Shown: positions 1-32,875 of the stretch, in pieces | Layout of the letters: every line of letters begins with the position of its first letter | Position numbering within the stretch: the stretch's first letter is position 1 | DNA from: a virus | Taxonomy: Duplodnaviria > Caudoviricetes | Length of the DNA stretch: 39,613 nt | Strand: one strand, 5' to 3' | Virus record (IMG/VR): IMGVR_UViG_3300025723_000083 | Location: 1-39,613 of that record | The notes under the pieces: generated by a model | What the model saw: only the letters and a program-made list of their open reading frames with translations | The model's database searches: none | Told to the model about the DNA's origin: nothing | Made by a program: the position numbers and the translations under genes

Positions 1-129
1 CGTCTTGCTTCAATTATTGGAACTACAGACGCTCAAATTGCGACTTCGTTGCAAAACATCGCCAACCATGTGAAAGCCGTAGTGAAGGCTACTCCAGCAC
101 CTGCGGCTACTCCAGCACCTGCGGCATAG
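1..129 (+). CDS. 3' end of a truncated hypothetical protein (Ala/Pro-rich C-terminus)
   Basis: Frame 1 is open from the window edge to TAG at 127-129 (…KATPAPAATPAPAA*), 4 nt before the next ATG. Confidence 0.6.
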   Translation, partial: RLASIIGTTDAQIATSLQNIANHVKAVVKATPAPAATPAPAA

Positions 130-12046: not shown

Positions 12047-15000
12047 ATGTCCGACCTAATGCCTTGGGAACAGAATTATTCAGCTCCCCAAGCTGACAAA
12101 CCAACGGACACTTCAGATCTTCCGTGGAACCAAAATTACGCAACCCCAGAGGGATCGGCTGATTCAAACAATCAATCGGAAACTCTTGCACCCTTAGCTA
12201 CACCAACGGCAAATGATGATGGTGCTTTCTGGGCGGGAGCTAGGTCGGCAGCCCGAGCAATTTTACCGGGAATAGCTGGCACTGCCGCCGCTATACCTTC
12301 CGCTGCTCTTGGAGCTTTTGCCGGTCCAGTTGGAGCTGCGGCTGCAGGCGTAGGTGGTGCAGTCGCAGGGTCAACGCTTGCTGAAAAAATTCAAACAGGT
12401 CTTGCCGATCAAATTGCTCCTGATTCATTTCTTGGCTCCAAGCAAGCCGAAGAAGATCAAGCAAATCACCCAGTTGCTTCAACGCTGGGAGGTCTACTTG
12501 GATTTGGAAGGCCAAGCGTCAAGTCGGCCATGGGAGCTGGCGAGGCATTGCTTACAAAAGGCGGTCGGGAAAGTCTGGCTCTTGCCGCAAAAAATTCCGT
12601 TCCATTTACACAAGCAAGCAGAGACTTTGCAGAAGCCGCCGCCAAAAACCCAGCGGGGGTGGAGGCAAAGGCCGCAGAACGATTCAGCCATGTGGCTGGA
12701 GCTGCCGCTGGCGTTGGTGTTGGAACCGCTCAAGGAATCGCAGCTGGAGATAGCCCGTTGCAAGCCGCAGGAATGGGGGCACTTGGTCTTGGATTTGAGC
12801 CATGGGTCGGGCCGCACGTATTCACTGGTGCTGGAAATGGCCAAGGCTCCACCAAGAAAAGTAAGCTCGATGACCTGGCTAATCAGAAGGTTGATTCTCA
12901 ACAGACCCCGCCCGCTGGAGACACAACGGGTACGGAGACAAATGTTGAAGAGAATGCCGACAATACCGATGTAGATAAGGAGAGTCTCGACAACATCAAC
13001 GATTCGATCAATAAGGCAGATCCAGCCACCAAAGATCTGGCCAACAACTTGGCAGATAATTCATCCCCTCAAACAGCGGCAGCAGTAATCGCCGCTGGAA
13101 CAACTTCTGCTTCCACACCAGCTTCAGAAACTACTACGGATAAAACATCTGTGGTTCCAGAAGTAAAAGCAGAACCTGCCGCAACACTGCAACCCGGCAT
13201 CACTTTCGTCCCAAATGCTGAAGGTCAGGTTGCATCAACCACGACCGAACCTGCTACAGCGGCAACCACAATTGCTTCAGAGCCAGCGACCGAGACTGCT
13301 ACCCCAGCACCGAAGGTTCAAGTGGCTCAAGACCCAGTAGCCGTTGCCGAACAAGCTGGCAAAACCCCCATGGAGTTCTTGCAGGAGAAGCCAGTCCTTG
13401 CTCTTGCCGAAAACCGACCACTCATGCGCAGTGGCCTCAATGTTGATAAGAAAGAGAACGGCAAAACAATTTCCTCGTTGGCCAACATCCGTGACCACGC
13501 CATCCAGACAAACAATCCAGTGTTACTGGCTGCAGTGTATCACGAGATCACTGTACGGACGGCAAAGACTCCAAATTCCAACAATTCCAATTTTCAATTC
13601 GGGGTAATAAGAGCCTACGAGCAAATGACGGGTGAGAAGCCGCTCTTGCCTGCCGACTCACAGCTTAAAGTAAAAACAACGGAGAATGGCTTCCCCAGGG
13701 TAATGAAAGGAGGGCCAGGCTTTGACCTGTCGGCCTACCAGCGTTCCGTGGAGGCACCTGTTACTCCCGCCACAGAACAAACCCCAGCTCCAAAACCTGC
13801 CGCTGAAAAGACCCCCGAAGTAACTTTGCCCGAAGAGGAGTTAGAAAATACCGAGGTTCCAGAGGGTGCTTTCACCGACGAAGAACAACCTCCGACAGAA
13901 GAAATTACTACTGCCAAAACAGCGGTCTCTTACACAAACGAAGCCCAAAAATTAGCTGAAAAACAAGGGATCAATCTGGCAGACGTACAACCAAATGCCC
14001 AAGGCACGGTTACCAAGCGTGAAGTTGCAGCTCACATAAAAGCCAATCCCCCAGAGCCAACTCCTGTCTGGCACTACGAGACTCCAGAAGCAAAAAAGTT
14101 TTTTGAAAATTTTGACGATCTGCAAAAAAAATCGGAAGAGGCAAAGACCCCCGAAGAAAAACAACAATTTGATGATCAATTGTTATCGTTGAAATCGAAA
14201 GCTAGGCAAAACCCCGAGTTGTACACACGGTGGAACCTCAACAACCCTGCGGTCAGATCGTATGATCAAGCAGGCGTTGCAACAGGAATAGCAAAGCTGG
14301 GGGGAGCAACTTGGAAAAATACCAATAGCCAAGAGACGGGATCGATGAGGCTTCGTGAGGTCAATCTTGCAGACGGAAGCACGGCTTTTGTTGATTTGGA
14401 CACGCTCCCCGAGGCAGTTGCAGATTCAATAGCTTACCCCGACCAAAGAAACCTTTCGGAAATCTCCCGTAGAACGGGGCATACCACAAAAACACTCAGG
14501 ACTTGGGAATCCCAAGGTATGCCGGGGGATACCGAAGGAGCAATCAACTGGATTGAAAAACACCAAAGAGATAAAAAAATCGCTTCTCAATCCAAGGAGG
14601 GGAAAAAATCTGCTGCTTCCTTGGATGCTACTTTGGGGGATAGCACCGCTACAATCGGGGATACTTTTGTTGGAGAAAACCCTACAAAACTTTCTACAGA
14701 AAAAGAAACCTACAGCGATTCTATTGTTAATCGAGCGGTTGCTCACATGGCAAGAACCGACATTCCTTTGTCGGACAGGTTGGCAGTTGGGAGAAAATTA
14801 CTGCAAGAAATTGATAACGGAACCAATAACGGGTTTACCGATGATCATTATAAAATAATCAGTTCGGCTTTGGATAAGCTACAAAACAACGCCTTTAAAG
14901 CTACGGAAAAACCAGCCGAGACTGAAAACAACGAAGATAAACTCAAACGACTGCAAGAGGGACACGATGCAGTAAGGGACACAATAGAACATCTTCGATC

Positions 15001-18000
15001 TAAAGGGGAAGATGTGACTCTTAAACAAGTACAAGATTTGGGGCAGCAAATGGTGGACGAGGGAATCCTTCCCCCCGGAGCAAAAAAAGTATTGGAAAAA
15101 AGAAACAAAGAAAGAGAACTCTCCCCAGAGGATTTGCTGGATGAGTTAGATTCGATCCATCAAAAATCTCAACGGGAACTTGATCGTACACCGCAAGAAA
15201 AGATGTCCCCCGAGGACTACGCCGATTATTTGGAAAAACTGCCTGAAGCGGAACGAGACGAGATTCCCACAAACGAAAATTCCGAAGGATACAATTTGTG
15301 GGAGGCTAGGAAGTTAATTTCCAAACAAAAACCCAACCAAACAAAATTTAAAAAAGTTTCCATGGATAACAGCATGGAACTGCACAACGAGTTTACCCAC
15401 ATCGCCAATGTAGATGGGGAACCTTATGGTTTAACAAACGAACTCGAAGACCCAGACGACGAAAATGCGTTTGTTTGGGGATTCCGTAGGATAGGTGATC
15501 TGAACTCAGATATGGTTGAGACTCCTTGGGGCAAAGGCAGTGAGGACGAAGTGGTGAAGATGATGCAGGAAGACCTTCAAGATCACTTGCAGGGGGAGAG
15601 TGAAATAGAAAATCAAAAAACTCCAGAATCTGTAGAGGAGCCAAGTAAAGAAAAAGAAGAAGAAGCTCCAAAAGAAGATTACCAAAAATCCAGTGACAAG
15701 GCCGATGAGTTGTTGAAAGAAGGTTATGATGCCGAGCAGCTCATGGATCGTTTTCATGTAAACGGAGAAGGTCGTGATCCGCTCCGTAAATTCCGCACTG
15801 GCACCGAGCACCTGGAGAACGAAGAGCCGCCAGCCGATCAAGTCACCCGTGGAGAACCGATCCAAACTATGCACGCTGGTGATCTTCTTGATCGTATCCA
15901 GCAAGATTTACGGGAGCGTGATAGCAAAGGCGGGATCAAAGATCGTGCCGCTCTTTCGTTTTTACGAACCATTGCCGATGTCTTTGCAAAGAACCGGGCA
16001 AGGCTAGAAGCCATACCCACCGATATTTTTCATGAACTCGAAGAGGGAACCGCTGGCGAGTACGACAAGCAGACCAAACGTATCTCACTCCCACAGGACT
16101 TCGACAGCGAGACGGCTCTTCACGAAATTTTCCACGCCCTTACCCAAGGAGGTGGGTTCCATTCCGCAGAGATCAAGAGACTCTTCTTGAAAATCCGCAA
16201 TGAAGCAGTCAAGCGCGGTTTGACTTCCGAGGAGCAGTGGACTCGTGCGGCAAATCCCGATGTCCTAGACAAGACTGCCGACGACGAGTTTCACTATGCC
16301 TTTTCATCGCACGACGAAATGATTGCGGGTCTCTTGAATCCCGACATTCGAGAGGCGTTAAACGCCATTCCGTTGAGGGACGAGGTGACGGGCAAAATGT
16401 CCAACGCATGGGAGCAACTTAAACAAAAGTTCCTCCAGCTCCTTGGCTTCCGAGTCCAGTCTGGATCAGCCTTGGATCACTATTTGACCCATGTCATGGA
16501 GCTGGTCAAACCCAGTACCGGGTCGGGTAACAAAAATTATTATTCTGCTCAATCGAATAATACGCTTGACACAAAAGGGGGTAATAGTGTAGTATATGCG
16601 AATGATTATGTCAAAAAAGACCCTTACTTCGGATCACGGACCTCTATCATACGAGGATCGCAAGAAGGCGGACAAGGTGCGCTTGAGCAGACTCCACAAA
16701 TCCAGCGAAGCGCACGAGAAGTCGCTGATCGAGGCTCAAAAGTCCGAGATGCGTTACTTGCAGTCCTTGCCGACGAGAAGCTGGTTGGAAGAGATCTTTC
16801 TAAACGCACTGAAGCGCAAGTTCGCCAAGTAAGTAACGCGCTATCGCGCTCTCTAATAGCCCCAGAAGAGGAACTCTCTCTTGGGAAGACTACAAACGAA
16901 AAGCGACTTGCGGAAGCAATACGCAAATTCCGAGAGGTTGTTCCTCTTGTTCCGTCAGAAGAGATAGATCGCCTCACCCAGTCCGAGGCAGACTCGGGAC
17001 TGATGTTGGATCAAGTCCAAGAAATGTATGAAAATGGGGCTCTTAGCGACGATAAATATGCCAAAGTTTTAAATGAATTAGCTAGGCAAAACGGCATTAA
17101 ACTTGGGAACGACCTTGATGCGGGAGCAGAGATGCTTCGTAAACACTTGGAGAACCACCAGTCTTCGGGAGCAAAATGGGTGCTGGAAGGGGAAGGAGCG
17201 GAGTCGAAGGCATATAAAGACGACCACGGCGTAGTCTATAAACTATCTCCCATAAGACAAGATGTATTGGGGATAGACTTGATAAACAAGGGGGCGCTAA
17301 ATTTAACAGACCGTCAACCAAGTCTATTTGATAGGGATGGTAGAATTCCCCTTTTTGACCGATTGATTGCAGCTAATTCTATGCCCGGACATTCGCCTAC
17401 GGAGATTGCTGGAATTACTACAGATGGGCGGATCATCCTTAAACAACCTTATTTAGGGAGAGAAGAATCTGAGACAACCAATCTAGTGCAAGCGGCAATA
17501 GATTCTGGATTGGAGATATTGCCAACGCAGAAAGAAGACCCTCGATTCGGAGGAGATGTAAATACAACGCCGATTATGTTTACGATAGGTGGAGAGCCGT
17601 GGCTCGCGTTGGACTACAACTCCCGAAACGCTCGATCTGTAGAAGGGAGATCAGTGCCTTTCGACTTGGTTTTCAAAAAACTTACCGCCAAGGAAATTGC
17701 GGCAAACAAAGACTTAAAGATTGCCGCTGATAAATTACAAAAAAACACCCTCAACTCAATTGCTCTTCGTTCAGTTAAATTCCGTAAAGCAACTACGGCT
17801 GGGGCAAATGACGCAGAACGTGAAATAGATCCCACTCGTCCAGCTCCTTTCTACAACTCTTCCACAAATGTGGAGACCACACAAAAAATGTCCGATTACA
17901 TCAATAGTGTGGGTACGGATGCCGCATACGAAAATTTGGTGAAGTACGCCAAAGACCCGACTATGGCCAGGGCACATGGATACGAAGAGAACGAAGTTCG

Positions 18001-20947
18001 TAACGGGCTGAAACAGCTTCAAGGCCAATACCAGAACAAGTACACGGAATCTCTGAAAAACCCCTCCCCTACGGCAGAAGATCTTGTAAATAGGAGAACG
18101 GCAAAATCACGCAATGAAGAGCTTACTGATCTGAACAAAATCATGGGAAGTGCGGCAGGTAAAGCCACCCAAGAGGGAGCCAATGTGGATTCTGTCAACA
18201 AGGCACCACAGGATTGGGTGGACGAGTATTTGAAATCTACTCTGGGTGGAAAACTAAATGAACTCGGAGCAGGAAAGCTCAATATCCGTCAACTTGTTGA
18301 TGGGATAAAAGCCATCAAACAATCGGCTGCGGAGATGACGATTGATGGTGCCACCAAGCTTCTTAGTAAATTTGGAATTGTTGAACCCGAGCGCTTGGCA
18401 CAACTGAAAACAATTTTGGGAGATACCGACACTACCCGAGCAGATCTTAAATCTGTTTTGGCGGAGATGATCGGAGGAAACAACCCAGAAAAAGTCGAGG
18501 CGGCAACTCAGCAGCTGACTGCTTTGTACAATACGGCTTCGCAAAAACTCGCTAGGGTGCAACTTCCCAAGGAGGTATTTGCCTCTTATGCAGGCAACGG
18601 AACAAAAGGTTCGGCTTCTGTAAGTGATAAGCTAGGCAAATACATTGGACTTGGGAGATTCAATGAAGATCAGATTCACAAGACCCTGTTGGAAACAATC
18701 GGAATCACGGGATACGATGCGGATTTTGTGAAAGCGATCCGAGACGAAGCCGCCCGGATTCAAACTCTGCCCAAAAATTCTGCACCCTACAATGATGCCT
18801 TGGCGGATTTCCAAGGTGCACTGGGTAACGAAATTTTAAGTCAACAGTGGAAAGGATCGGGCGTACTTGGAAAAGTTAAAATTGGTCTTGTTAAGATTTT
18901 ACCCGATTTGTTCCGCAGTGCTATTCTTACTGGACCTCAAACACTTCTTACCCACGGGTTTTCGGGAGGTCTTAATGTGCGACTCGAAGCGGGATTTGAA
19001 GCACTGGGTAGATACCAAGCGGCTTTGAATGAAGGTAGATCAGCGTCCGAAGCGGCTGGATACTTTAAAGACTACTTTGAATCTATGTTTGGCGGGGACA
19101 AAGGAGCTAGAGGTCGTCCTCTCGGAGGAGAGTTTTGGAGAGCCTTACGCACGGGTAAAGCCGCCGTAGGAACGAGCAAAGGAATCGGTCTTCGAGGTAG
19201 TGATGCCCTTGGGAGCAGCAATTTTGGTGGATCTGGAATCGGAGGCAAAGTTTTCCGATTTTACTCAAAGGCTATGGGAGTTCTTCCACGAACTCTTCTT
19301 GCATTCGACACTGTGAATGCGGGATCTGGAGAAGAACTTAACCAGAGATGGGCAACTCGGGCAGCTCTTTTAAATGCAGGTAGCAACGCCGAAGAAGTGG
19401 CTACCGAAATGAAACGCATTTTTGCTCCATCCACGGAGCAGTTGCAACCTGCCTACGACAAGTTGGCAGAAGAAGTCAGCAAAGGGTATTTCAACGGAGT
19501 GACTGGTTTTCAGAAAAAAGCTTTGTTGGCAGAACGATTGGAACAACTTCACAAATCAACACGTCCTTTGGAAGCCCTCAAACAAGCTGAGGCTGGAACA
19601 AAAGCCACAGAAGACTGGACAATGAAAGGAGAGCAGCATGGTCTTTGGGGTGCCCTTACAGGTGCAATTGGAAGTGCAAACAGAAAGACGGGCGTAACGG
19701 GTTTTGTGTTTCCGTTCACCCGTATTATCAGTGCTTTGATGAATACCTCGTTGAGCTATACTCCGCTGGGATTGTTGCGGGCGAACAATGCTTCCCTCTC
19801 CAACCTTTTCCTCCCAGAAAACTCAAAGTACGCATGGCCTAAGATGGTCAAGGGATCGCCAGAACAACTTGCTCTTACAAGTAAATCTATCCTTGGTTCT
19901 TCAATTGGCTTGGCCATCACGACAATGTTCCTAAAAGAACTTTCGGATGAAGAACAGACGGGAAAAAAGCCAGCGTTTATGTTCTATGGTGCCGGTCCGA
20001 AAGACCCCGCAAAACGAGGTGAATGGATGGCTGCGGGCGGGAGACCCAACACATTTGCGGTGGGTGATACTTATCTGCCGTATAAAGCTATACCCGGCAT
20101 TAACCTTTTGGGAACAATGCTTGGGACACTTCACGACTATGTGACTTACGAAAATCCGCTCCCCAAAATGAAGGGCGGGCAGATGCCTACCGCAGAGGAG
20201 ATCGCTAAACACAATAATTGGGTCTCTAGCGACAAGGCGTACCGCATTGCTACGGCGATTGCAATGAGCCCTCTTGAGCAACACTTCTTAAGTGGAGCCA
20301 AGAATTTGATCGACATCATGCACGACCCTCAGGGTGCATCGGCTCCAAGGGCAGTGGTTAACCAATTAGTCGGAACAGCCAGTCAATTCACTAACCCCAC
20401 TGTGTTTCGCACTGTTCGCGCTTTGCTTGGAGGCATTAGGCAACCAGAAGGGAATTCCCCCACTCTCGATACATACAATTCGTTGGACGGAAAAGCCGCT
20501 CAATTCATTCCGTTCTACGCTGGGTTTAATACACCATCACTTAATGTGTTAGGAGACCCGATCCAAAAGAAACCTCTTGATGCCATTACAGATAGGTGGT
20601 TGTTTTCTTCAACTACTGCTCCAGACCCAATTATTTCGCCGTTAGTAAACAATGGGTTGTTTTTACCTGGACCGAAGAAGAATTCTCCAATCATGGTTAA
20701 CAACCAAGGTAAACTTGCTACCTTGAATGATGCGGGCGACGATGCTTGGAGAGCCTACGTGGTGGCCAGAGGTAGTTTCTTAAAACAAGTGCTGTCTCCA
20801 AGCGTGGTACAGCAGCTAATCAACATGGATCGTATCCAAGCGCAATCTTATCTGGACGGCTCTGACATTGGTGGGGCGGCTTCTCACTATGCGAGAGATA
20901 TGGTGGAAGCAATGATCCAAAGCGGTCAAATCAAAGTCAACGGCTAG
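12047..20947 (+). CDS. giant polyvalent internal virion/ejection protein (zincin peptidase, kinase-like domain, LPD-type C-terminus)
   Basis: 2966 aa; N-terminal PWE repeats and Gly/Ala hydrophobic helices; HEIFH at 16121; GEGAES/VYKL/DYNSRN/PFD kinase motifs at 17189-17665; FVFPF…YTPLG and GGRPNTFAVGD in the C-terminal region. Confidence 0.8.
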   Translation: MSDLMPWEQNYSAPQADKPTDTSDLPWNQNYATPEGSADSNNQSETLAPLATPTANDDGAFWAGARSAARAILPGIAGTAAAIPSAALGAFAGPVGAAAAGVGGAVAGSTLAEKIQTGLADQIAPDSFLGSKQAEEDQANHPVASTLGGLLGFGRPSVKSAMGAGEALLTKGGRESLALAAKNSVPFTQASRDFAEAAAKNPAGVEAKAAERFSHVAGAAAGVGVGTAQGIAAGDSPLQAAGMGALGLGFEPWVGPHVFTGAGNGQGSTKKSKLDDLANQKVDSQQTPPAGDTTGTETNVEENADNTDVDKESLDNINDSINKADPATKDLANNLADNSSPQTAAAVIAAGTTSASTPASETTTDKTSVVPEVKAEPAATLQPGITFVPNAEGQVASTTTEPATAATTIASEPATETATPAPKVQVAQDPVAVAEQAGKTPMEFLQEKPVLALAENRPLMRSGLNVDKKENGKTISSLANIRDHAIQTNNPVLLAAVYHEITVRTAKTPNSNNSNFQFGVIRAYEQMTGEKPLLPADSQLKVKTTENGFPRVMKGGPGFDLSAYQRSVEAPVTPATEQTPAPKPAAEKTPEVTLPEEELENTEVPEGAFTDEEQPPTEEITTAKTAVSYTNEAQKLAEKQGINLADVQPNAQGTVTKREVAAHIKANPPEPTPVWHYETPEAKKFFENFDDLQKKSEEAKTPEEKQQFDDQLLSLKSKARQNPELYTRWNLNNPAVRSYDQAGVATGIAKLGGATWKNTNSQETGSMRLREVNLADGSTAFVDLDTLPEAVADSIAYPDQRNLSEISRRTGHTTKTLRTWESQGMPGDTEGAINWIEKHQRDKKIASQSKEGKKSAASLDATLGDSTATIGDTFVGENPTKLSTEKETYSDSIVNRAVAHMARTDIPLSDRLAVGRKLLQEIDNGTNNGFTDDHYKIISSALDKLQNNAFKATEKPAETENNEDKLKRLQEGHDAVRDTIEHLRSKGEDVTLKQVQDLGQQMVDEGILPPGAKKVLEKRNKERELSPEDLLDELDSIHQKSQRELDRTPQEKMSPEDYADYLEKLPEAERDEIPTNENSEGYNLWEARKLISKQKPNQTKFKKVSMDNSMELHNEFTHIANVDGEPYGLTNELEDPDDENAFVWGFRRIGDLNSDMVETPWGKGSEDEVVKMMQEDLQDHLQGESEIENQKTPESVEEPSKEKEEEAPKEDYQKSSDKADELLKEGYDAEQLMDRFHVNGEGRDPLRKFRTGTEHLENEEPPADQVTRGEPIQTMHAGDLLDRIQQDLRERDSKGGIKDRAALSFLRTIADVFAKNRARLEAIPTDIFHELEEGTAGEYDKQTKRISLPQDFDSETALHEIFHALTQGGGFHSAEIKRLFLKIRNEAVKRGLTSEEQWTRAANPDVLDKTADDEFHYAFSSHDEMIAGLLNPDIREALNAIPLRDEVTGKMSNAWEQLKQKFLQLLGFRVQSGSALDHYLTHVMELVKPSTGSGNKNYYSAQSNNTLDTKGGNSVVYANDYVKKDPYFGSRTSIIRGSQEGGQGALEQTPQIQRSAREVADRGSKVRDALLAVLADEKLVGRDLSKRTEAQVRQVSNALSRSLIAPEEELSLGKTTNEKRLAEAIRKFREVVPLVPSEEIDRLTQSEADSGLMLDQVQEMYENGALSDDKYAKVLNELARQNGIKLGNDLDAGAEMLRKHLENHQSSGAKWVLEGEGAESKAYKDDHGVVYKLSPIRQDVLGIDLINKGALNLTDRQPSLFDRDGRIPLFDRLIAANSMPGHSPTEIAGITTDGRIILKQPYLGREESETTNLVQAAIDSGLEILPTQKEDPRFGGDVNTTPIMFTIGGEPWLALDYNSRNARSVEGRSVPFDLVFKKLTAKEIAANKDLKIAADKLQKNTLNSIALRSVKFRKATTAGANDAEREIDPTRPAPFYNSSTNVETTQKMSDYINSVGTDAAYENLVKYAKDPTMARAHGYEENEVRNGLKQLQGQYQNKYTESLKNPSPTAEDLVNRRTAKSRNEELTDLNKIMGSAAGKATQEGANVDSVNKAPQDWVDEYLKSTLGGKLNELGAGKLNIRQLVDGIKAIKQSAAEMTIDGATKLLSKFGIVEPERLAQLKTILGDTDTTRADLKSVLAEMIGGNNPEKVEAATQQLTALYNTASQKLARVQLPKEVFASYAGNGTKGSASVSDKLGKYIGLGRFNEDQIHKTLLETIGITGYDADFVKAIRDEAARIQTLPKNSAPYNDALADFQGALGNEILSQQWKGSGVLGKVKIGLVKILPDLFRSAILTGPQTLLTHGFSGGLNVRLEAGFEALGRYQAALNEGRSASEAAGYFKDYFESMFGGDKGARGRPLGGEFWRALRTGKAAVGTSKGIGLRGSDALGSSNFGGSGIGGKVFRFYSKAMGVLPRTLLAFDTVNAGSGEELNQRWATRAALLNAGSNAEEVATEMKRIFAPSTEQLQPAYDKLAEEVSKGYFNGVTGFQKKALLAERLEQLHKSTRPLEALKQAEAGTKATEDWTMKGEQHGLWGALTGAIGSANRKTGVTGFVFPFTRIISALMNTSLSYTPLGLLRANNASLSNLFLPENSKYAWPKMVKGSPEQLALTSKSILGSSIGLAITTMFLKELSDEEQTGKKPAFMFYGAGPKDPAKRGEWMAAGGRPNTFAVGDTYLPYKAIPGINLLGTMLGTLHDYVTYENPLPKMKGGQMPTAEEIAKHNNWVSSDKAYRIATAIAMSPLEQHFLSGAKNLIDIMHDPQGASAPRAVVNQLVGTASQFTNPTVFRTVRALLGGIRQPEGNSPTLDTYNSLDGKAAQFIPFYAGFNTPSLNVLGDPIQKKPLDAITDRWLFSSTTAPDPIISPLVNNGLFLPGPKKNSPIMVNNQGKLATLNDAGDDAWRAYVVARGSFLKQVLSPSVVQQLINMDRIQAQSYLDGSDIGGAASHYARDMVEAMIQSGQIKVNG
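16566..16595 (+). promoter_or_regulatory. internal sigma70-like promoter inside the giant ORF
   Basis: TTGACA (16566-16571), 18-nt spacer, TAGTAT (16590-16595), within an AT-rich patch. Confidence 0.55.
16602..16832 (+). CDS. overprinted small basic helical protein (76 aa, +1 frame), possibly leaderless
   Basis: ATG 7 nt after the -10 box; ORF open for 76 codons; helical amphipathic sequence. Confidence 0.45.
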   Translation: MIMSKKTLTSDHGPLSYEDRKKADKVRLSRLHKSSEAHEKSLIEAQKSEMRYLQSLPTRSWLEEIFLNALKRKFAK

Positions 20948-25615: not shown

Positions 25616-25644
25616 ATTTTATGCGTGGTTGATTAAACCATCAA
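25616..25644 (-). promoter_or_regulatory. sigma70-like promoter overlapped by a palindromic operator
   Basis: TTGATG (25644-25639), 17 nt, TAAAAT (25621-25616); TGGTTTAATCAACCA overlaps the -35 box and spacer. Confidence 0.6.
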
Positions 25645-27251
25645 GCATTAAGTGTCGTCTCGAAGTTGGACAATGAGTGTTCGATAAGCATGGGTGCATT
25701 GGCTTGGCACCACTCCGTTGCCGAGACATCTGAGTTCGTGAGTTCGGTTGTCATAGGTGTTGCACAGCTCGGCATAACCCAACCCACTGGCAGACCCATC
25801 AAAGCCTCCACAAACCTCGGATTCAACTTGGCAGTTATCTTCTCCTTCTGTTGAGCCGTCGAGTCCGACTTCAATGCTTTGTCTCTGGTCGGAATTCCCA
25901 CAATCGAAGGATGATTGCTCAGTCCAGGTTGACCGAAGTTCGGTTGATTGCCGATCTTCCCCGCTTCCATTGCCGTCGGTGTCGGCCACGAGGCTTGCTT
26001 GTAGATCTCCACTGAGGTCGGGTCTACCTGCTCTCGCAAGTTCGCTGGCGAAGTTCGTCCCTTGCGGGTCGTCGTGGCTTGACGAAGTAACGCTTCGGGT
26101 GAACGGAGATCCATGTGATCCAGCGTATTCGGAGTCGCCCAAGCCGCCATCCTCGCTAGATCCCGACCCAAACATTTCTGGTTGCTTTGAGTCCCCGTCC
26201 TCACCCCCTCGATGTGGTCTGATGCTTGAGGGGTTGCCCAGTTGTTGGGCTCGTATTTCCCCTCGATGGTTGCCGCCAGACCCTTGCCGTAGCCCGGAGA
26301 GGTTGTCCCCGGTTCCTGAGCTCTGGGAGTCGGCCAGTTGTTGCCCACCTGAATGGCCTGCGACTTGAGTGGAAGATGAAGGTTCACCCCTTTCTCCGCT
26401 TGCGTTGCCGCACGCTTCTCCCACTGCTCCTTGGTCTCGGGTTGATTCCAGTCGAAGGCCGAGGGAGTCGCCCACTTGGCGTGAACGTGATCCCTCAACT
26501 TGTACTTCCCCGCCGTCCCCGGCCGCATCTCCATGATGCCCCCTTCCCCGTCCGACGAGCTTGGTGTTCTCCAATACTCTTGGGGGTTCCCAGTCGTGTT
26601 GTCTTTCGCCGGGTCTAGCAGGCCACCTGGAAGGTAGGCTTGTACTACCACATCCAGCGTGTCCATGGACACTTTGCCCCTGCGTATCCGACCACCTGAG
26701 TAGCCGCCCTTGTGATCCCGAGTCGATGCGGTCGGCCAAGATGAAGACTCTTTTGCGTTGGTGGGGAGCACCTCCTGACCCTGCTTCAGACGCCGAGAAA
26801 ATTCCGAACGTCGTTTTGTAACCAAGCTCTTCCAAGTCGCTGATGACTGAGTTGAGTCCCATCGATACGTGCCCGTCCACATTTTCAAAGAAACATTGGT
26901 GGGGTCGCATAAGTTCAATTCCGTCTTTGATCCAAGGCCAGAGGTGTCTTGGGTCTGACTTGCCGAGGCGGTTGCCAGCGGCACTGAATGGCTGACAGGG
27001 ATAGCCTCCACTGAGGATAGATACTCGGTCACGAAAGAGTTCCCAAGGGAAGGCTTTAAGGTCCGTGTGGATAGGGGCGACATCCAGTTGGCCTTCTTCA
27101 ATGCGCTTGAGAAGGACCGAGATCGGGAAGGCTTCCCGTTCACAGTAAGCGATTGTTCGTAGAGCTGGCAGAGCTGCTCTGATTCCCAAGTCAATGCCTC
27201 CGTATCCAGAGCACAAGCTGACGTGTGTAATTGTTTCGGTAGTATCCACAT
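25641..27251 (-). CDS. overlapping MTase beta-like chain with 7 WxTP modules and motif IX
   Basis: 536 codons open in a second frame; repeated W(P/A/R)T(P/A)xxx(D/E); LNPRFVEALMGLPVGW (motif IX). Confidence 0.8.
   Translation of the reverse strand: MWILPKQLHTSACALDTEALTWESEQLCQLYEQSLTVNGKPSRSRSFSSALKKANWMSPLSTRTLKPSLGNSFVTEYLSSVEAIPVSHSVPLATASASQTQDTSGLGSKTELNLCDPTNVSLKMWTGTYRWDSTQSSATWKSLVTKRRSEFSRRLKQGQEVLPTNAKESSSWPTASTRDHKGGYSGGRIRRGKVSMDTLDVVVQAYLPGGLLDPAKDNTTGNPQEYWRTPSSSDGEGGIMEMRPGTAGKYKLRDHVHAKWATPSAFDWNQPETKEQWEKRAATQAEKGVNLHLPLKSQAIQVGNNWPTPRAQEPGTTSPGYGKGLAATIEGKYEPNNWATPQASDHIEGVRTGTQSNQKCLGRDLARMAAWATPNTLDHMDLRSPEALLRQATTTRKGRTSPANLREQVDPTSVEIYKQASWPTPTAMEAGKIGNQPNFGQPGLSNHPSIVGIPTRDKALKSDSTAQQKEKITAKLNPRFVEALMGLPVGWVMPSCATPMTTELTNSDVSATEWCQANAPMLIEHSLSNFETTLNA
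25648..27249 (-). CDS. C5-cytosine DNA methyltransferase, catalytic (alpha-like) chain
   Basis: Motif I SLCSGYGG, IV GYPCQPFS, VI ENV, VIII HQRKRVF, X LGNGVVP; GTG start. Confidence 0.85.
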   Translation of the reverse strand: MDTTETITHVSLCSGYGGIDLGIRAALPALRTIAYCEREAFPISVLLKRIEEGQLDVAPIHTDLKAFPWELFRDRVSILSGGYPCQPFSAAGNRLGKSDPRHLWPWIKDGIELMRPHQCFFENVDGHVSMGLNSVISDLEELGYKTTFGIFSASEAGSGGAPHQRKRVFILADRIDSGSQGRLLRWSDTQGQSVHGHAGCGSTSLPSRWPARPGERQHDWEPPRVLENTKLVGRGRGHHGDAAGDGGEVQVEGSRSRQVGDSLGLRLESTRDQGAVGEACGNASGERGEPSSSTQVAGHSGGQQLADSQSSGTGDNLSGLRQGSGGNHRGEIRAQQLGNPSSIRPHRGGEDGDSKQPEMFGSGSSEDGGLGDSEYAGSHGSPFTRSVTSSSHDDPQGTNFASELARAGRPDLSGDLQASLVADTDGNGSGEDRQSTELRSTWTEQSSFDCGNSDQRQSIEVGLDGSTEGEDNCQVESEVCGGFDGSASGLGYAELCNTYDNRTHELRCLGNGVVPSQCTHAYRTLIVQLRDDT

Positions 27252-30549: not shown

Positions 30550-31821
30550 TTAACCGCCCACAGGAATGTGGACGGTATCGCCGAAGGGAGCGGTCAGCCG
30601 CTCGTTGTTGTAGACGCACCAGATGGTGGGGAATGGCCAAGCGACATCGGGGAAGCTGCCCTCAAGATCGGTCAGATAGATGACGACTCGTGGGTCGATG
30701 CCACGGCGGAGGATCTCCTCGCCGACGGGACGGAAGTCGGTTCCGCCACCGCCACGAAGAGTCAACTCGATGGGAGACTGATCGTGATACTCCTGCACAT
30801 CGGTGATCGCCGCATCACACTGAATCACGCTGACCTTGGTAGGTTTGCACCTAGCGATGAGCGAGTTGATCTCGGACTGGAAAGAGCTGACAACCTCGGG
30901 GACTCCGTAGATAGAGCCAGAGGTATCGACTGCAATGACTACTTCGCCAAGGGTCTCGTCGTGAAGATCGGGGAGGACGATGTCGTCAGGTAGGAAACGG
31001 CGGTCAGGCTTGTTCCAGCTATAGTCGTTGGCGCTGGTCTGGTCGATGAACCGCTCCAAGATCTGTTGCCAAGGAACCTTGGGGTTGACGAGATCTTGAA
31101 CCAATGCCTCGACACAACCGGGCACGCTACCCTGCATCTTGGCAGAGGTAGCAGCTTGGACTAAACGACGCTCCCACTCCTTCTCCATCTCGTCGGCGGT
31201 AAACTCGTCGGTCGCCGCTTGTGACTCGAACTCGCCCCAGCCGCCTTCGGATTGGGTGCGGGGGGCGTTGGGGTCGGGCTTACCCTTGCCACCCTTGGAG
31301 GTGGGGTCGGGTTGACCATTGCCGCCGTTGCCGTCGCCATCCTCGGTGTCGTCACCCTCGCCACCCTCTGGCTCGTCGGGTTCGTCTTGAGGCTCGGGCG
31401 GTGGCTGTGGCTTGCGGATGTCGGCAAGGATCTGCTCGCACGACATATCGTCGTACTTGTGATCCAAGCAACCGCCGTCGGGCAGGGGCAACGCCAAGGC
31501 ACCAGCTTCCTTGTTGTAGTTATCGAGGAAGTTGTTGATGGCGTAGTCGCCAGCAATGTTGCCGTCCTTGTCTCGGGGCAAGCGAGTCAAGTGACCAAGG
31601 GCAGGGTGCATGACCTCATGCACTAGCAAACCAGCAACTTGTGCCTCGGATAGCGAGTTGATGAAGTCGGGATTGTAACGGATGACCACACCATTGGTGC
31701 AGGCAGTCGGTACGCTCGGGTCTTCGATCCGTGGCATCTGCAACAGGAGCGTTGCAAAGAACGGATGGTCGAGAACGATCTGGGTGGTAGCGGAGGCTAC
31801 TTTATCTGAGGCGATGGACAT
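30550..31821 (-). CDS. metallopeptidase + vWA domain protein (DUF2201-like)
   Basis: PTACTNG, HEVMH, acidic linker, MIDAS VDTSGS, GGGGTDF, YLTDL; start set at MSIASD. Confidence 0.85.
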   Translation of the reverse strand: MSIASDKVASATTQIVLDHPFFATLLLQMPRIEDPSVPTACTNGVVIRYNPDFINSLSEAQVAGLLVHEVMHPALGHLTRLPRDKDGNIAGDYAINNFLDNYNKEAGALALPLPDGGCLDHKYDDMSCEQILADIRKPQPPPEPQDEPDEPEGGEGDDTEDGDGNGGNGQPDPTSKGGKGKPDPNAPRTQSEGGWGEFESQAATDEFTADEMEKEWERRLVQAATSAKMQGSVPGCVEALVQDLVNPKVPWQQILERFIDQTSANDYSWNKPDRRFLPDDIVLPDLHDETLGEVVIAVDTSGSIYGVPEVVSSFQSEINSLIARCKPTKVSVIQCDAAITDVQEYHDQSPIELTLRGGGGTDFRPVGEEILRRGIDPRVVIYLTDLEGSFPDVAWPFPTIWCVYNNERLTAPFGDTVHIPVGG

Positions 31822-31849
31822 AAGGTTTAAGGGTTGAGTTGGTTGAGGG

Positions 31850-32875
31850 TTAGGAGGCGTGACCGAAGACCTCGGGGTTGTCCGTGATCCAAGTGGTGAA
31901 CGCTGGGGTCGCACTGAGGCTGGACTTGGAAGTGACTGCCGTCTTGACAGCGAACACCTCGAACTCCTTGGCCATGCGGCTGACATAGGTGACGAAGGCT
32001 CCCATCATCTTGGGGGTAACCTTCTTGGAGAGACCCGCACAGGTGGCGTAGATCGTGGAAGGATCGGTCGGCACCTCGGCGGTGTCGGGCGACAGGAGCA
32101 CGGCATCGAGATTCGGGAGCTTCTCGTAGATACCGAGGAAGCCGAGGAACTCGGTGGATGCGGCCTGACCGAGAGTGCCGTCCAGCAACAGGTGACGGAC
32201 GGTGCGGTCGGAGCAGGTCTCCACAATCTTGGACGCCTTGTCCCAAGTGCGGGGTGAGGCAAAGTTGCTGACGCCGTCCCACTTGGCACCATTGAAGGTG
32301 GTCAAGAGATCGGGGCGGAAGCGGATGAAGGCGATGACGATAGGGTCAACGCCGTTCTTCTGTGCCCACTTAGTCCAGCTCTCAAGGTCAAGCTTGATGC
32401 GGATGTTGACGATGCGGTTGACCACAGCCGACGAGAGCTTCTCGATGTTGACTCGATCCTCTGCACGATTGCCGAGCAGACAGACGAAGGCGTCATCGGG
32501 CAACTTGTGGTCGCCGACCCGGTTGTCGTTGAGGAGCTGCAACGCCACATTCTGGACAGAACGAGTGGCGCAGTTGAACTCTTCCAAGGCGATGACTGGC
32601 GTGGCGGTCTTCGGCCAGAAGGCTGGCTTACTGAACCGCATGGTCTTCTCACCTGCCTCGTCGGTGTGGAGATACGGGAAGCCCTGCACATCCTGCGGTG
32701 CGTAGTAGGCGAGTCGTGCATCGACGAACTCGGCACCGATGGAGTTGGCGTACTCGGCGACGACGGCGGACTTGCCGACGCCAGGCTGACCTTGGATGAA
32801 GGGTCGGAGACCTGCGGCGTGGCAGGACTTGAGGACACCCTTGAGTTGGGTTGGGGTTGCTTCGATGGTTTGCAT
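31850..32875 (-). CDS. MoxR-like AAA+ ATPase
   Basis: Walker A GQPGVGKS, Walker B ALEEFN, LGNR, NR arginine finger, SPRTW. Confidence 0.85.
   Translation of the reverse strand: MQTIEATPTQLKGVLKSCHAAGLRPFIQGQPGVGKSAVVAEYANSIGAEFVDARLAYYAPQDVQGFPYLHTDEAGEKTMRFSKPAFWPKTATPVIALEEFNCATRSVQNVALQLLNDNRVGDHKLPDDAFVCLLGNRAEDRVNIEKLSSAVVNRIVNIRIKLDLESWTKWAQKNGVDPIVIAFIRFRPDLLTTFNGAKWDGVSNFASPRTWDKASKIVETCSDRTVRHLLLDGTLGQAASTEFLGFLGIYEKLPNLDAVLLSPDTAEVPTDPSTIYATCAGLSKKVTPKMMGAFVTYVSRMAKEFEVFAVKTAVTSKSSLSATPAFTTWITDNPEVFGHAS

What the first reader, a model, noticed from the sequence alone, without database searches (positions are those of the whole stretch)
16566..16832. Internal promoter and overprinted, possibly leaderless gene nested in the giant virion gene just before its kinase domain
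Seen in sequence: TTGACA-18-TAGTAT lies inside the 2966-aa ORF (host frame reads LDTKGGNSVVY). ATG codons follow at 16596, 16602 and 16608 in the +1 frame; 16602 sits at the expected transcription start. The 76-aa product (…YEDRKKADKVRLSRLHKSSEAHEKSLIEAQKSEMRYLQSLPTRSWLEEIFLNALKRKFAK) looks helical, while the host frame is a G/S/R-rich linker there. Inference: this could be an immunity or antitoxin protein for the kinase domain ~350 nt downstream, or a separately expressed effector. It may be the relic of a captured promoter-antitoxin-toxin cassette fused into an ejected protein.
Basis: partly seen in the sequence, partly recalled or inferred. Interest (0 to 1): 0.75.

Follow-up and report, generated by a model that had tools for sequence, protein, structure and literature searches.

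The report
Likely kinase inhibitor nested in phage gene
A conserved promoter inside a giant phage gene is followed by a 74-76-codon reading frame, one base out of step, that overlaps the start of a protein-kinase-like module; its small protein is predicted to bind that module and likely acts as its built-in antidote.

Summary
In detail: TTGACA-18-TAGTAT at 16566-16595, then a +1 ORF (ATG 16602/16608 to 16832).

The match alone is chance-level (2 sites vs 2.3 expected). But both related giant genes with DNA keep the same promoter through synonymous codon choices (about 0.006 and 0.001 by chance) while carrying different kinase modules. All 4 distinct kinase-bearing relatives have an ATG-led +1 ORF (56-79 codons) over the kinase N-terminal extension.

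- The host frame under the ORF is not a linker. It is the folded N-terminus of a divergent Kinase-PolyVal-like module that starts at 16619.
- The promoter belongs to the giant-gene chassis; modules swap just after it.

Complex prediction supports binding (0.73 vs best control 0.00). A lake variant's differences cluster in the 139 nt encoding both predicted interface halves.

Best reading: an embedded, host-promoter-driven antitoxin for a virion-delivered kinase (0.55). There are no RNA, translation or toxicity data, and no DNA from a distant homolog of this exact ORF. The scan saw this architecture before on other DNA with other enzymes; my paper searches did not find it.

The parts
12047..20947 (+). 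Giant 2966-aa polyvalent-type gene (virion/ejected role inferred, not shown)
   Evidence: ORF; relatives of 2074-2921 aa share N-terminal, HExxH and C-terminal parts; no Pfam, PHROG or NCBIfam hit
16566..16571 (+). -35 box TTGACA (host codons CTT GAC ACA)
   Evidence: TTGAC kept at the same place in L001 and L007
16590..16595 (+). -10 box TAGTAT (TATTAT in L001 and L007), 18-nt spacer
16602..16832 (+). Nested +1-frame ORF, 76 aa from ATG 16602 or 74 aa from ATG 16608; basic two-helix protein; candidate kinase inhibitor
   Evidence: called as a gene on short contigs in the protein collection; no stop in a variant with 10 differences
16613..16619 (+). A_AAA_AAG slippery heptamer at codons 2-4 of the ORF from 16608; a -1 shift would give MSKK-DPYFG, a free kinase
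   Evidence: sequence; no downstream structure (z 0.08)
16619..17741 (+). Exchangeable kinase-like module (host aa 1525 to about 1899): DPYFG N-terminus, helical domain, then a core with G-loop Glu1719, Lys1732, Gln1800, Asp1856, Asn1861, Asp1873
16754..16900 (+). Block encoding both main halves of the predicted interface (nested residues 58-71; module residues 67-71 and 91-112); holds 18 of 19 differences of the lake variant
16586..16614 (-). Overlapping reverse promoter-like site TTGACA-17-TACACT; its -35 is not kept at that spacing in relatives; significance unknown

Best explanation
A conserved sigma-70-type promoter inside the giant gene likely drives a separately translated 74-76-residue protein, read in the +1 frame over the first 70 codons of the kinase-like module, which is predicted to bind that module and would likely inhibit it as an embedded antitoxin. 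SHOWN: the promoter sequence and its retention at synonymous sites; the +1 ORF here and at the same position in four relatives; that the overlapped host frame is the start of a kinase-like module that is swapped between relatives just after the -10 box; and that the short transcript has no in-frame ATG/GTG/TTG for the kinase before codon 1653, so it would mainly make the small protein. PREDICTED: the small protein's C-terminal amphipathic helix (residues 58-71) docks on the module's helical domain, and its long helix (29-33) touches the glycine-rich loop. INFERRED: the giant protein is packaged and ejected; the kinase harms or reprograms the infected cell; and the host promoter keeps the inhibitor present in lysogens (against kinase delivered by sibling phages) and during late synthesis of the giant protein. 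Because inhibitor and binding site share one short stretch of DNA, a module swap brings its own antidote.
For: PROMOTER. One TTGAC[ACT]-16..18-TANNNT site per giant gene, at the homologous codon, in 3 of 3 same-family genes with DNA. Chance of promoter-forming codons given the peptide is 0.0056 (L001/L008) and 0.0014 (L007), while only 32-44% of identical residues upstream share a codon. The LD-x6-[VIL][VIL][YS] peptide is at the same place in 4 of 8 giant relatives known only as proteins, plus P0010. NESTED ORF. 4 of 4 distinct kinase-bearing relatives have an ATG-led +1 ORF of 79, 63, 69 and 56 codons over the kinase N-terminal extension. Positional null about 2.5e-4 to 2e-3; protein-conditioned null 0.028. 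The +2 frame has 0 ATG ORFs of 55 or more codons in the four giant genes, against 12 in +1. The best-scoring +1 windows outside one Gly-rich stretch are here, and the host-frame codon score dips (8.5 vs mean 31.9). BINDING. Score 0.73 vs best of 3 controls 0.00; the mark was reached by 116 of 157 solved and 2 of 215 mismatched pairs; runs share at least 59% of contacts; partner pLDDT at least 65. A lake variant carries 18 of 19 differences in 139 of 676 covered nt; 3 of 10 module changes hit named interface residues (p 0.04) and 7 of 10 lie within one residue (p 1e-4). Leu60>Ser in the small protein comes with Ser96>Tyr in the module, a listed contact pair. CONTEXT. 3 of 4 other records carry a tyrosine-integrase match, 2 over the cut-off.
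Against: No DNA was found for any distant homolog of this exact ORF, and the four relatives' +1 peptides are not similar to it (z at most 1.5). The protein-conditioned null is weak for three relatives (0.43, 0.81, 0.60), and the loci are not fully independent. Long +1 ORFs occur elsewhere in these genes (4 others of 55 or more codons in this gene). SNP codon-position tests are not significant (p 0.09 and 0.05), and the stretch just past the nested stop shows the same pattern. The back-translation test on P0009 was inconclusive. The variant cluster was noticed after the fact, rests on one lineage and may be one recombination tract; Leu60>Ser could equally be read as loss of an interface residue. 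Most predicted contacts are on the helical domain, not in the active site, and binding is not inhibition. Kinase activity, toxicity and virion location are untested; Pfam does not recognise the module. Several stand-alone homologs look unlikely to hold such an ORF (P0021 has a forced +1 stop). L017 lacks a matching -35 and L016 has no adjacent promoter match. The window's own record shows no integrase, but it is 56% complete.
Confidence: 0.55

Rival explanations
1. The promoter's purpose is to express a free kinase. Ribosomes starting at ATG 16608 would slip -1 at A_AAA_AAG and make MSKK-DPYFG..., a product that starts like the stand-alone homologs and runs to the giant gene's stop; the +1 peptide is the unshifted by-product or a stoichiometric partner.
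For: The heptamer is in the right phase directly before DPYFG. Stand-alone homologs begin 1-20 residues before the same motif. A_AAA_AAG is described as highly shift-prone in E. coli (PMC5009743, passages). There is no in-frame start before codon 1653.
Against: No stimulatory structure downstream (z 0.08). The heptamer is absent after the +1 ATG in L001, L007, L016 and L017. AAAAAAG occurs 9 times on the + strand of the window. The product would carry about 1070 further residues of the giant protein.
Confidence: 0.12
2. The nested gene is real but is not an inhibitor: it is an assembly chaperone, activator or packaging partner of the kinase module, or an independent small effector made in the lysogen.
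For: Predicted contacts lie mostly on the helical domain. All five +1 products are basic and Cys-free, which also fits nucleic-acid or ribosome binding. Their sequences are unrelated across modules.
Against: The prediction includes contacts to the G-loop Ala212/Glu213. A host-type promoter suits expression when the late giant gene is silent (inference). The variant changes fall on both interface halves.
Confidence: 0.18
3. The promoter is real but the ORF is incidental. The site makes a regulatory or antisense RNA, or drives the genes downstream, and the +1 frame is open because of the Arg/Gly/Ser/Gln-rich host composition.
For: P(open | protein) is 0.06-0.81 per locus. No homolog of the peptide was found. 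The -10 region also reads TATAAT or TATACT on the reverse strand in 3 of 3 genes. SNP tests are not significant.
Against: 4 of 4 relatives have an ATG-led ORF at this position. An ATG lies exactly 6 nt after the -10 box in the window and L007. The complex prediction passes with controls at 0.00.
Confidence: 0.15

Closest known systems
Kinase-PolyVal domain (Pfam PF18762) of phage polyvalent proteins (Iyer et al. 2017, PMC5512222; section on kinases and term passages read)
   Same: Truncated Ser/Thr/Tyr-type kinase in a giant phage protein, with Glu before strand 2 and a conserved Gln. The paper proposes cassette exchange. Relatives L001, L007 and P0024 carry PF18762 at the same site.
   Different: This module has no Pfam hit, has an extra N-terminal helical domain and a DPYFG start, and shows no evident catalytic-loop His. 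The paper's main text has 0 occurrences of 'promoter', 'overlap' or 'frameshift' and describes no nested partner; its external File S2 was not seen.
Lambda Rz1 embedded in Rz (PMC5295617; passages read)
   Same: A small gene wholly embedded in the +1 frame of a larger gene, whose product works with the host gene's product.
   Different: The spanins are cooperating lysis subunits. There Rz1 lies in a mutationally silent part of Rz; here the overlap is a folded, family-conserved domain, has its own promoter, and sits in an exchangeable enzyme module.
HipBST: HipS antitoxin of the HipT kinase (PMC10627512; abstract read)
   Same: A small protein binds a bacterial Ser/Thr kinase and inhibits it; working analogy only.
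   Different: No sequence or family similarity was found. hipS is a separate gene in an operon with hipB. HipS inserts a Trp into the active site, whereas Trp59 here is predicted on the helical domain.
Polymorphic toxin-immunity cassettes such as MuF (PMC3482391, PMC12226406; search listing and abstract starts only)
   Same: A variable enzyme module in a phage protein with a cognate small protective protein (inferred here).
   Different: There the toxin is C-terminal and the immunity gene is separate (gene order recalled, not from a call). Here the module is internal and the candidate immunity gene is overprinted on its start.

Membership tests
Kinase-PolyVal (PF18762) | Match to the Pfam model over its cut-off | tested here: not met
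   No hit at E 0.05-0.1
Kinase-PolyVal (PF18762) | Profile or structural relationship to members | tested here: met
   hhalign probability 95.7, E 1e-8; 29 of 30 Atlas feature hits are PF18762 clusters, best 0.94; Foldseek PolyVal kinase E 7e-5, TM 0.54 on target
Kinase-PolyVal (PF18762) | Glu N-terminal to strand 2 and conserved Gln in the last N-lobe strand | tested here: met
   Glu213 is Glu in 13 of 15 homologs; Gln294 in 15 of 15
Kinase-PolyVal (PF18762) | Loss of the C-terminal subdomain with ATP-binding Lys and catalytic Asp/Asn/Asp kept | tested here: met
   Lys226, Asp350, Asn355, Asp367 conserved; stand-alone homologs end about 25-60 residues after Asp367
Kinase-PolyVal (PF18762) | Insert between the conserved His and Asp of phosphotransfer | tested here: inconclusive
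   No conserved His is evident in the 16-row alignment
Kinase-PolyVal (PF18762) | Protein kinase activity | not testable with these tools
   Needs an assay
Embedded +1-frame gene (Rz/Rz1 architecture) | ORF wholly inside another in the +1 frame, same strand | tested here: met
Embedded +1-frame gene (Rz/Rz1 architecture) | Both frames translated and under selection | tested here: inconclusive
   Positional recurrence in 4 of 4 relatives; SNP and back-translation tests not significant; no RNA run listed
Type II toxin-antitoxin / toxin-immunity pair | Direct binding of the small protein to the enzyme | tested here: inconclusive
   Prediction passes, 0.73 vs best control 0.00; a model, not a measurement
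Type II toxin-antitoxin / toxin-immunity pair | Enzyme toxic, rescued by the partner | not testable with these tools
   Needs co-expression
HipBST | HipA/HipT-family kinase, HipS homologous to the HipA N-terminal subdomain, HipB regulator | tested here: not met
   No Pfam, NCBIfam or PADLOC match for either product

The most novel reading that the evidence does not exclude
Polyvalent-protein kinases generally carry their own inhibitor overprinted in the +1 frame on their N-terminal extension. The giant phage gene supplies a fixed internal host promoter as a socket, so any kinase module recombined in behind it automatically has its cognate antitoxin expressed in the lysogen, and one ~150-nt block encodes both halves of the specificity interface. 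In this copy a slippery A_AAA_AAG may also release a free kinase from the same start codon.
Probability: 0.35. Interest if true: 0.85.

Novelty: new variant of a known kind. Interest (0 to 1): 0.66.

Why it matters
Polyvalent phage proteins carry many toxin-like enzymes, yet the defining paper names no cognate immunity genes for these kinases. If the antidote is hidden out of frame inside the enzyme gene and driven by an internal host promoter, annotation has been missing it. That would explain how modules can be swapped safely and would predict module-specific superinfection immunity. It would also be a natural case of two interacting protein surfaces encoded by overlapping and adjacent DNA. 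The pair is small enough for a simple toxicity-rescue test.

Tried and rejected
HOMOLOG SEARCHES FOR THE NESTED PEPTIDES found nothing: word search (L007 peptide), Atlas, Pfam (window peptide only), PHROGs (3 of the 5 peptides), NCBIfam and PADLOC (all 5). These blanks do not show absence.

DNA FOR HOMOLOGS OF THIS KINASE SUBTYPE was not found: viral scans, handle search, cultured phages and plasmids by tblastn. The viral scan with the upstream HExxH region as a single protein also found nothing. The genome-collection scan gave one weak 54-residue hit (L006), dropped as chance. L003-L005 are the same phage and were not counted. Duplicate loci were counted once: L001/L002/L008/L009/L010/L012/L014/L015; L007/L011/L013; L016/L019; L017/L018/L020.

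EXPRESSION: no RNA holder was listed, which is no evidence either way. Only contigs were laid (8 lays of 7 of the 24 runs).

INCONCLUSIVE TESTS: SNP codon position; back-translation of P0009 and P0010; expected +1 stops from protein sequence (this window at the 30th percentile of its gene).

OTHER: Foldseek against PDB gave no match at E 0.001. VIA-align gave many protein kinases at Z 5.5-6.5, tied with helical bundles and under the Z 8 mark. No Rfam match in the window. ATG 16596 was rejected as the start from this promoter because it lies before the expected transcription start; it could serve on a read-through mRNA, since the G-run in the spacer pairs with the anti-SD at -10.2 kcal/mol. The single-sequence helical model was given little weight.

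NOT IN PRINT rests (open-access full text only) and the term search in PMC5512222. No supplements were read; Iyer's external File S2 and operon pages could bear on this.

Full report
OBSERVATION. The sequence holds TTGACA (16566-16571), 18 nt, and TAGTAT (16590-16595) inside ORF 12047-20947, followed by +1-frame ATGs at 16596, 16602 and 16608 and a stop at 16830-16832. Alone this is not above chance: 2 such sites in the window vs 2.32 in shuffles, and 7.8% of +1 positions in this gene have 74 or more open codons ahead. A codon model trained on the phage's other genes shows the host-frame score dropping here (8.5 vs mean 31.9, sd 9.5) and the +1 score among the top windows; a Gly-rich stretch near 19040 scores similarly. 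Gene callers have called the 76-aa product, and a 74-aa variant, on short contigs, which is weak support. The phage is held in freshwater metagenomes.

THE HOST FRAME IS NOT A LINKER. A phmmer search with host aa 1387-1911 gave 31 hits. One group is stand-alone proteins of about 300-410 aa whose first residues align to DPYFG at nt 16619 (P0009, 47% identity; P0023; P0013 and others). The same module sits in other giants (P0015, P0034, P0038). AlphaFold2 with this 16-row alignment gives mean pLDDT 86.6, with a long helix at module residues 44-70 inside the overlap. The C-terminal half is a divergent relative of the polyvalent-protein kinase. Support: hhalign 95.7% against seven relatives' modules, two of which hit PF18762; 29 of 30 Atlas hits; Foldseek E 7e-5 to a PolyVal kinase; and conserved Lys, Gln, Asp, Asn, Asp. 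Pfam itself gives no hit. Activity is untested.

THE PROMOTER BELONGS TO THE CHASSIS. The second group of hits is eight giant relatives that share the HExxH domain up to the promoter peptide and then diverge. Four of them have LD-x6-[VIL][VIL][YS] at that place followed by other kinase subtypes. Two have an LA-x6 variant, and two appear by eye to have neither the motif nor a kinase there. P0010 joins a P0012-like upstream part to this window's module, placing a swap just after the -10 box. Two relatives with DNA, L001 and L007, have TTGACA-18-TATTAT and TTGACT-18-TATTAT at the homologous codons, the only such site in each gene. Given the peptide, such codons would arise with probability 0.0056 and 0.0014, while upstream synonymous sites are near saturation at 32-44% identical codons. 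I rate the promoter as real at about 0.9.

THE NESTED ORF RECURS BY POSITION. L001 has a 79-codon and L007 a 63-codon ATG-led +1 ORF after the promoter; in L007 the ATG is 6 nt after the -10 box, as for 16602. Two unrelated PF18762 loci do the same: a stand-alone kinase (L016, 69 codons) and another giant (L017, 56 codons). All end shortly before the kinase core. That is 4 of 4 distinct relatives. The positional null is about 2.5e-4 (2e-3 if only three count as independent). The stricter null conditioned on the host protein is 0.028 and is weak for three loci singly. The peptides are basic and Cys-free but not similar to the window's, and no DNA was found for a distant homolog of this exact ORF. 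A lake variant seen in three 2020 runs has 10 differences in the ORF and no stop (random placement would create one 16% of the time), 5 of them at +1 third positions. The tests are not significant, and the flank just downstream looks alike. I rate the ORF as a real gene at about 0.75.

START AND TRANSLATION. 21 of 26 gene starts tested lack a strong SD, so the absence of one is uninformative. P0010 loses the codon pair giving ATG 16602 and keeps that for 16608. The short transcript has no in-frame ATG/GTG/TTG for the kinase until codon 1653. ATG 16608 is followed by A_AAA_AAG in the phase for a -1 shift into DPYFG (PMC5009743 passages), but there is no stimulatory fold and relatives lack the heptamer. 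In L007 and L001 the purine-rich spacer is followed by an in-frame +1 ATG or GTG, so the ORF might also be read from the long late mRNA; here a TAG at 16590 closes that frame.

BINDING. The one complex job (module 17-395 with its alignment, plus the 74-aa protein) scored 0.73 against a best control of 0.00. The mark was reached by 116 of 157 solved and 2 of 215 mismatched pairs, roughly applicable since my own alignment was used. Runs share at least 59% of contacts and partner pLDDT is at least 65. Confident contacts join nested residues 58-71 with module residues 67-71 and 91-112, and nested 29-33 with the G-loop (212-213) and 286-287. No similar solved complex was found for either chain, so a pass from memory is less likely. 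Both main interface halves are encoded within nt 16763-16900, and 18 of the variant's 19 differences over 676 covered nt fall in 16754-16892. 3 of 10 module changes are at named interface residues (p 0.04) and 7 of 10 are within one residue. Leu60>Ser accompanies Ser96>Tyr at a listed contact. This was seen after the fact, in one lineage, and may be a single recombination tract.

MECHANISM. Three of four other records have an integrase match; the window's record, 56% complete, has none. I infer a temperate family in which a host-type promoter inside a late gene keeps a small inhibitor present against the cognate kinase, whether delivered by a sibling virion or made in the same cell (0.55). Rivals: a real gene with another role (0.18), an incidental ORF (0.15), a frameshift-made free kinase as the main purpose (0.12). 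The virion role of the giant protein is inferred from gene size, position and family, not shown.

COMPARISON AND NOVELTY. The architecture is like Rz1 in Rz (PMC5295617, passages). The proposed function is like HipS on HipT (PMC10627512, abstract) or a polymorphic toxin-immunity pair. It is a member of none of these. The paper defining these kinases mentions no promoter, overlap or frameshift (PMC5512222, kinase section and passages), and my searches found no description. Earlier unchecked notes of this scan report promoters plus +1 ORFs before other enzyme domains in other giant genes; they are not evidence, but this is one more case of a recurring pattern, here for the kinase family.

Noticed in passing
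window 25641-27251 (-) and 25648-27249 (-): Two same-strand overlapping ORFs of 536 and 533 codons. One hits PHROG 'DNA methyltransferase' families; the other hits the dcm C5-methyltransferase model, E 4e-19, below its cut-off. A long dual-frame overlap or a PHROG built on the wrong frame.
   Followed up: partly
window 16586-16614 (-); L001 4590-4632; L007 791-830: The -10 region also reads as a good -10 box on the reverse strand in 3 of 3 genes (TATACT, TATAAT, TATAAT), and the window has a reverse TTGACA-17-TACACT site; possible divergent antisense transcription.
   Followed up: partly
window 16573: One 151-nt contig of run X16 (depth 2) lacks one base in the promoter spacer (18 to 17 nt), which would shift the giant ORF into the nested frame; may be an error.
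   Followed up: no
window about 19000-19300: A second dip in host-frame codon score over a Gly-rich stretch, with no long ATG-led +1 ORF.
   Followed up: partly
window-wide: Most genes lack Shine-Dalgarno sequences and have A/C-rich leaders (21 of 26 weaker than -5 kcal/mol). The kinase's look-alikes are mostly from Verrucomicrobiota, a possible host group.
   Followed up: partly
P0008 (variant of the nested protein): A 74-aa variant in the protein collection starts with Leu and has Pro at position 5, which would alter the start codon and the host DPYFG motif; DNA not available.
   Followed up: no
L008 giant gene, codon about 1447; L017 giant gene, codon about 1417: Further ATG-led +1 ORFs of 126 and 89 codons inside these giant genes.
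   Followed up: no
P0013, P0017, P0018, P0020, P0021 and similar: An unnamed family of stand-alone ~400-aa kinase-like proteins with no Pfam match (3 scanned); by composition some seem less able to hold a +1 ORF.
   Followed up: partly
window 30550-32875 (-): An AAA ATPase gene next to a DUF2201 metallopeptidase-VWA gene.
   Followed up: no
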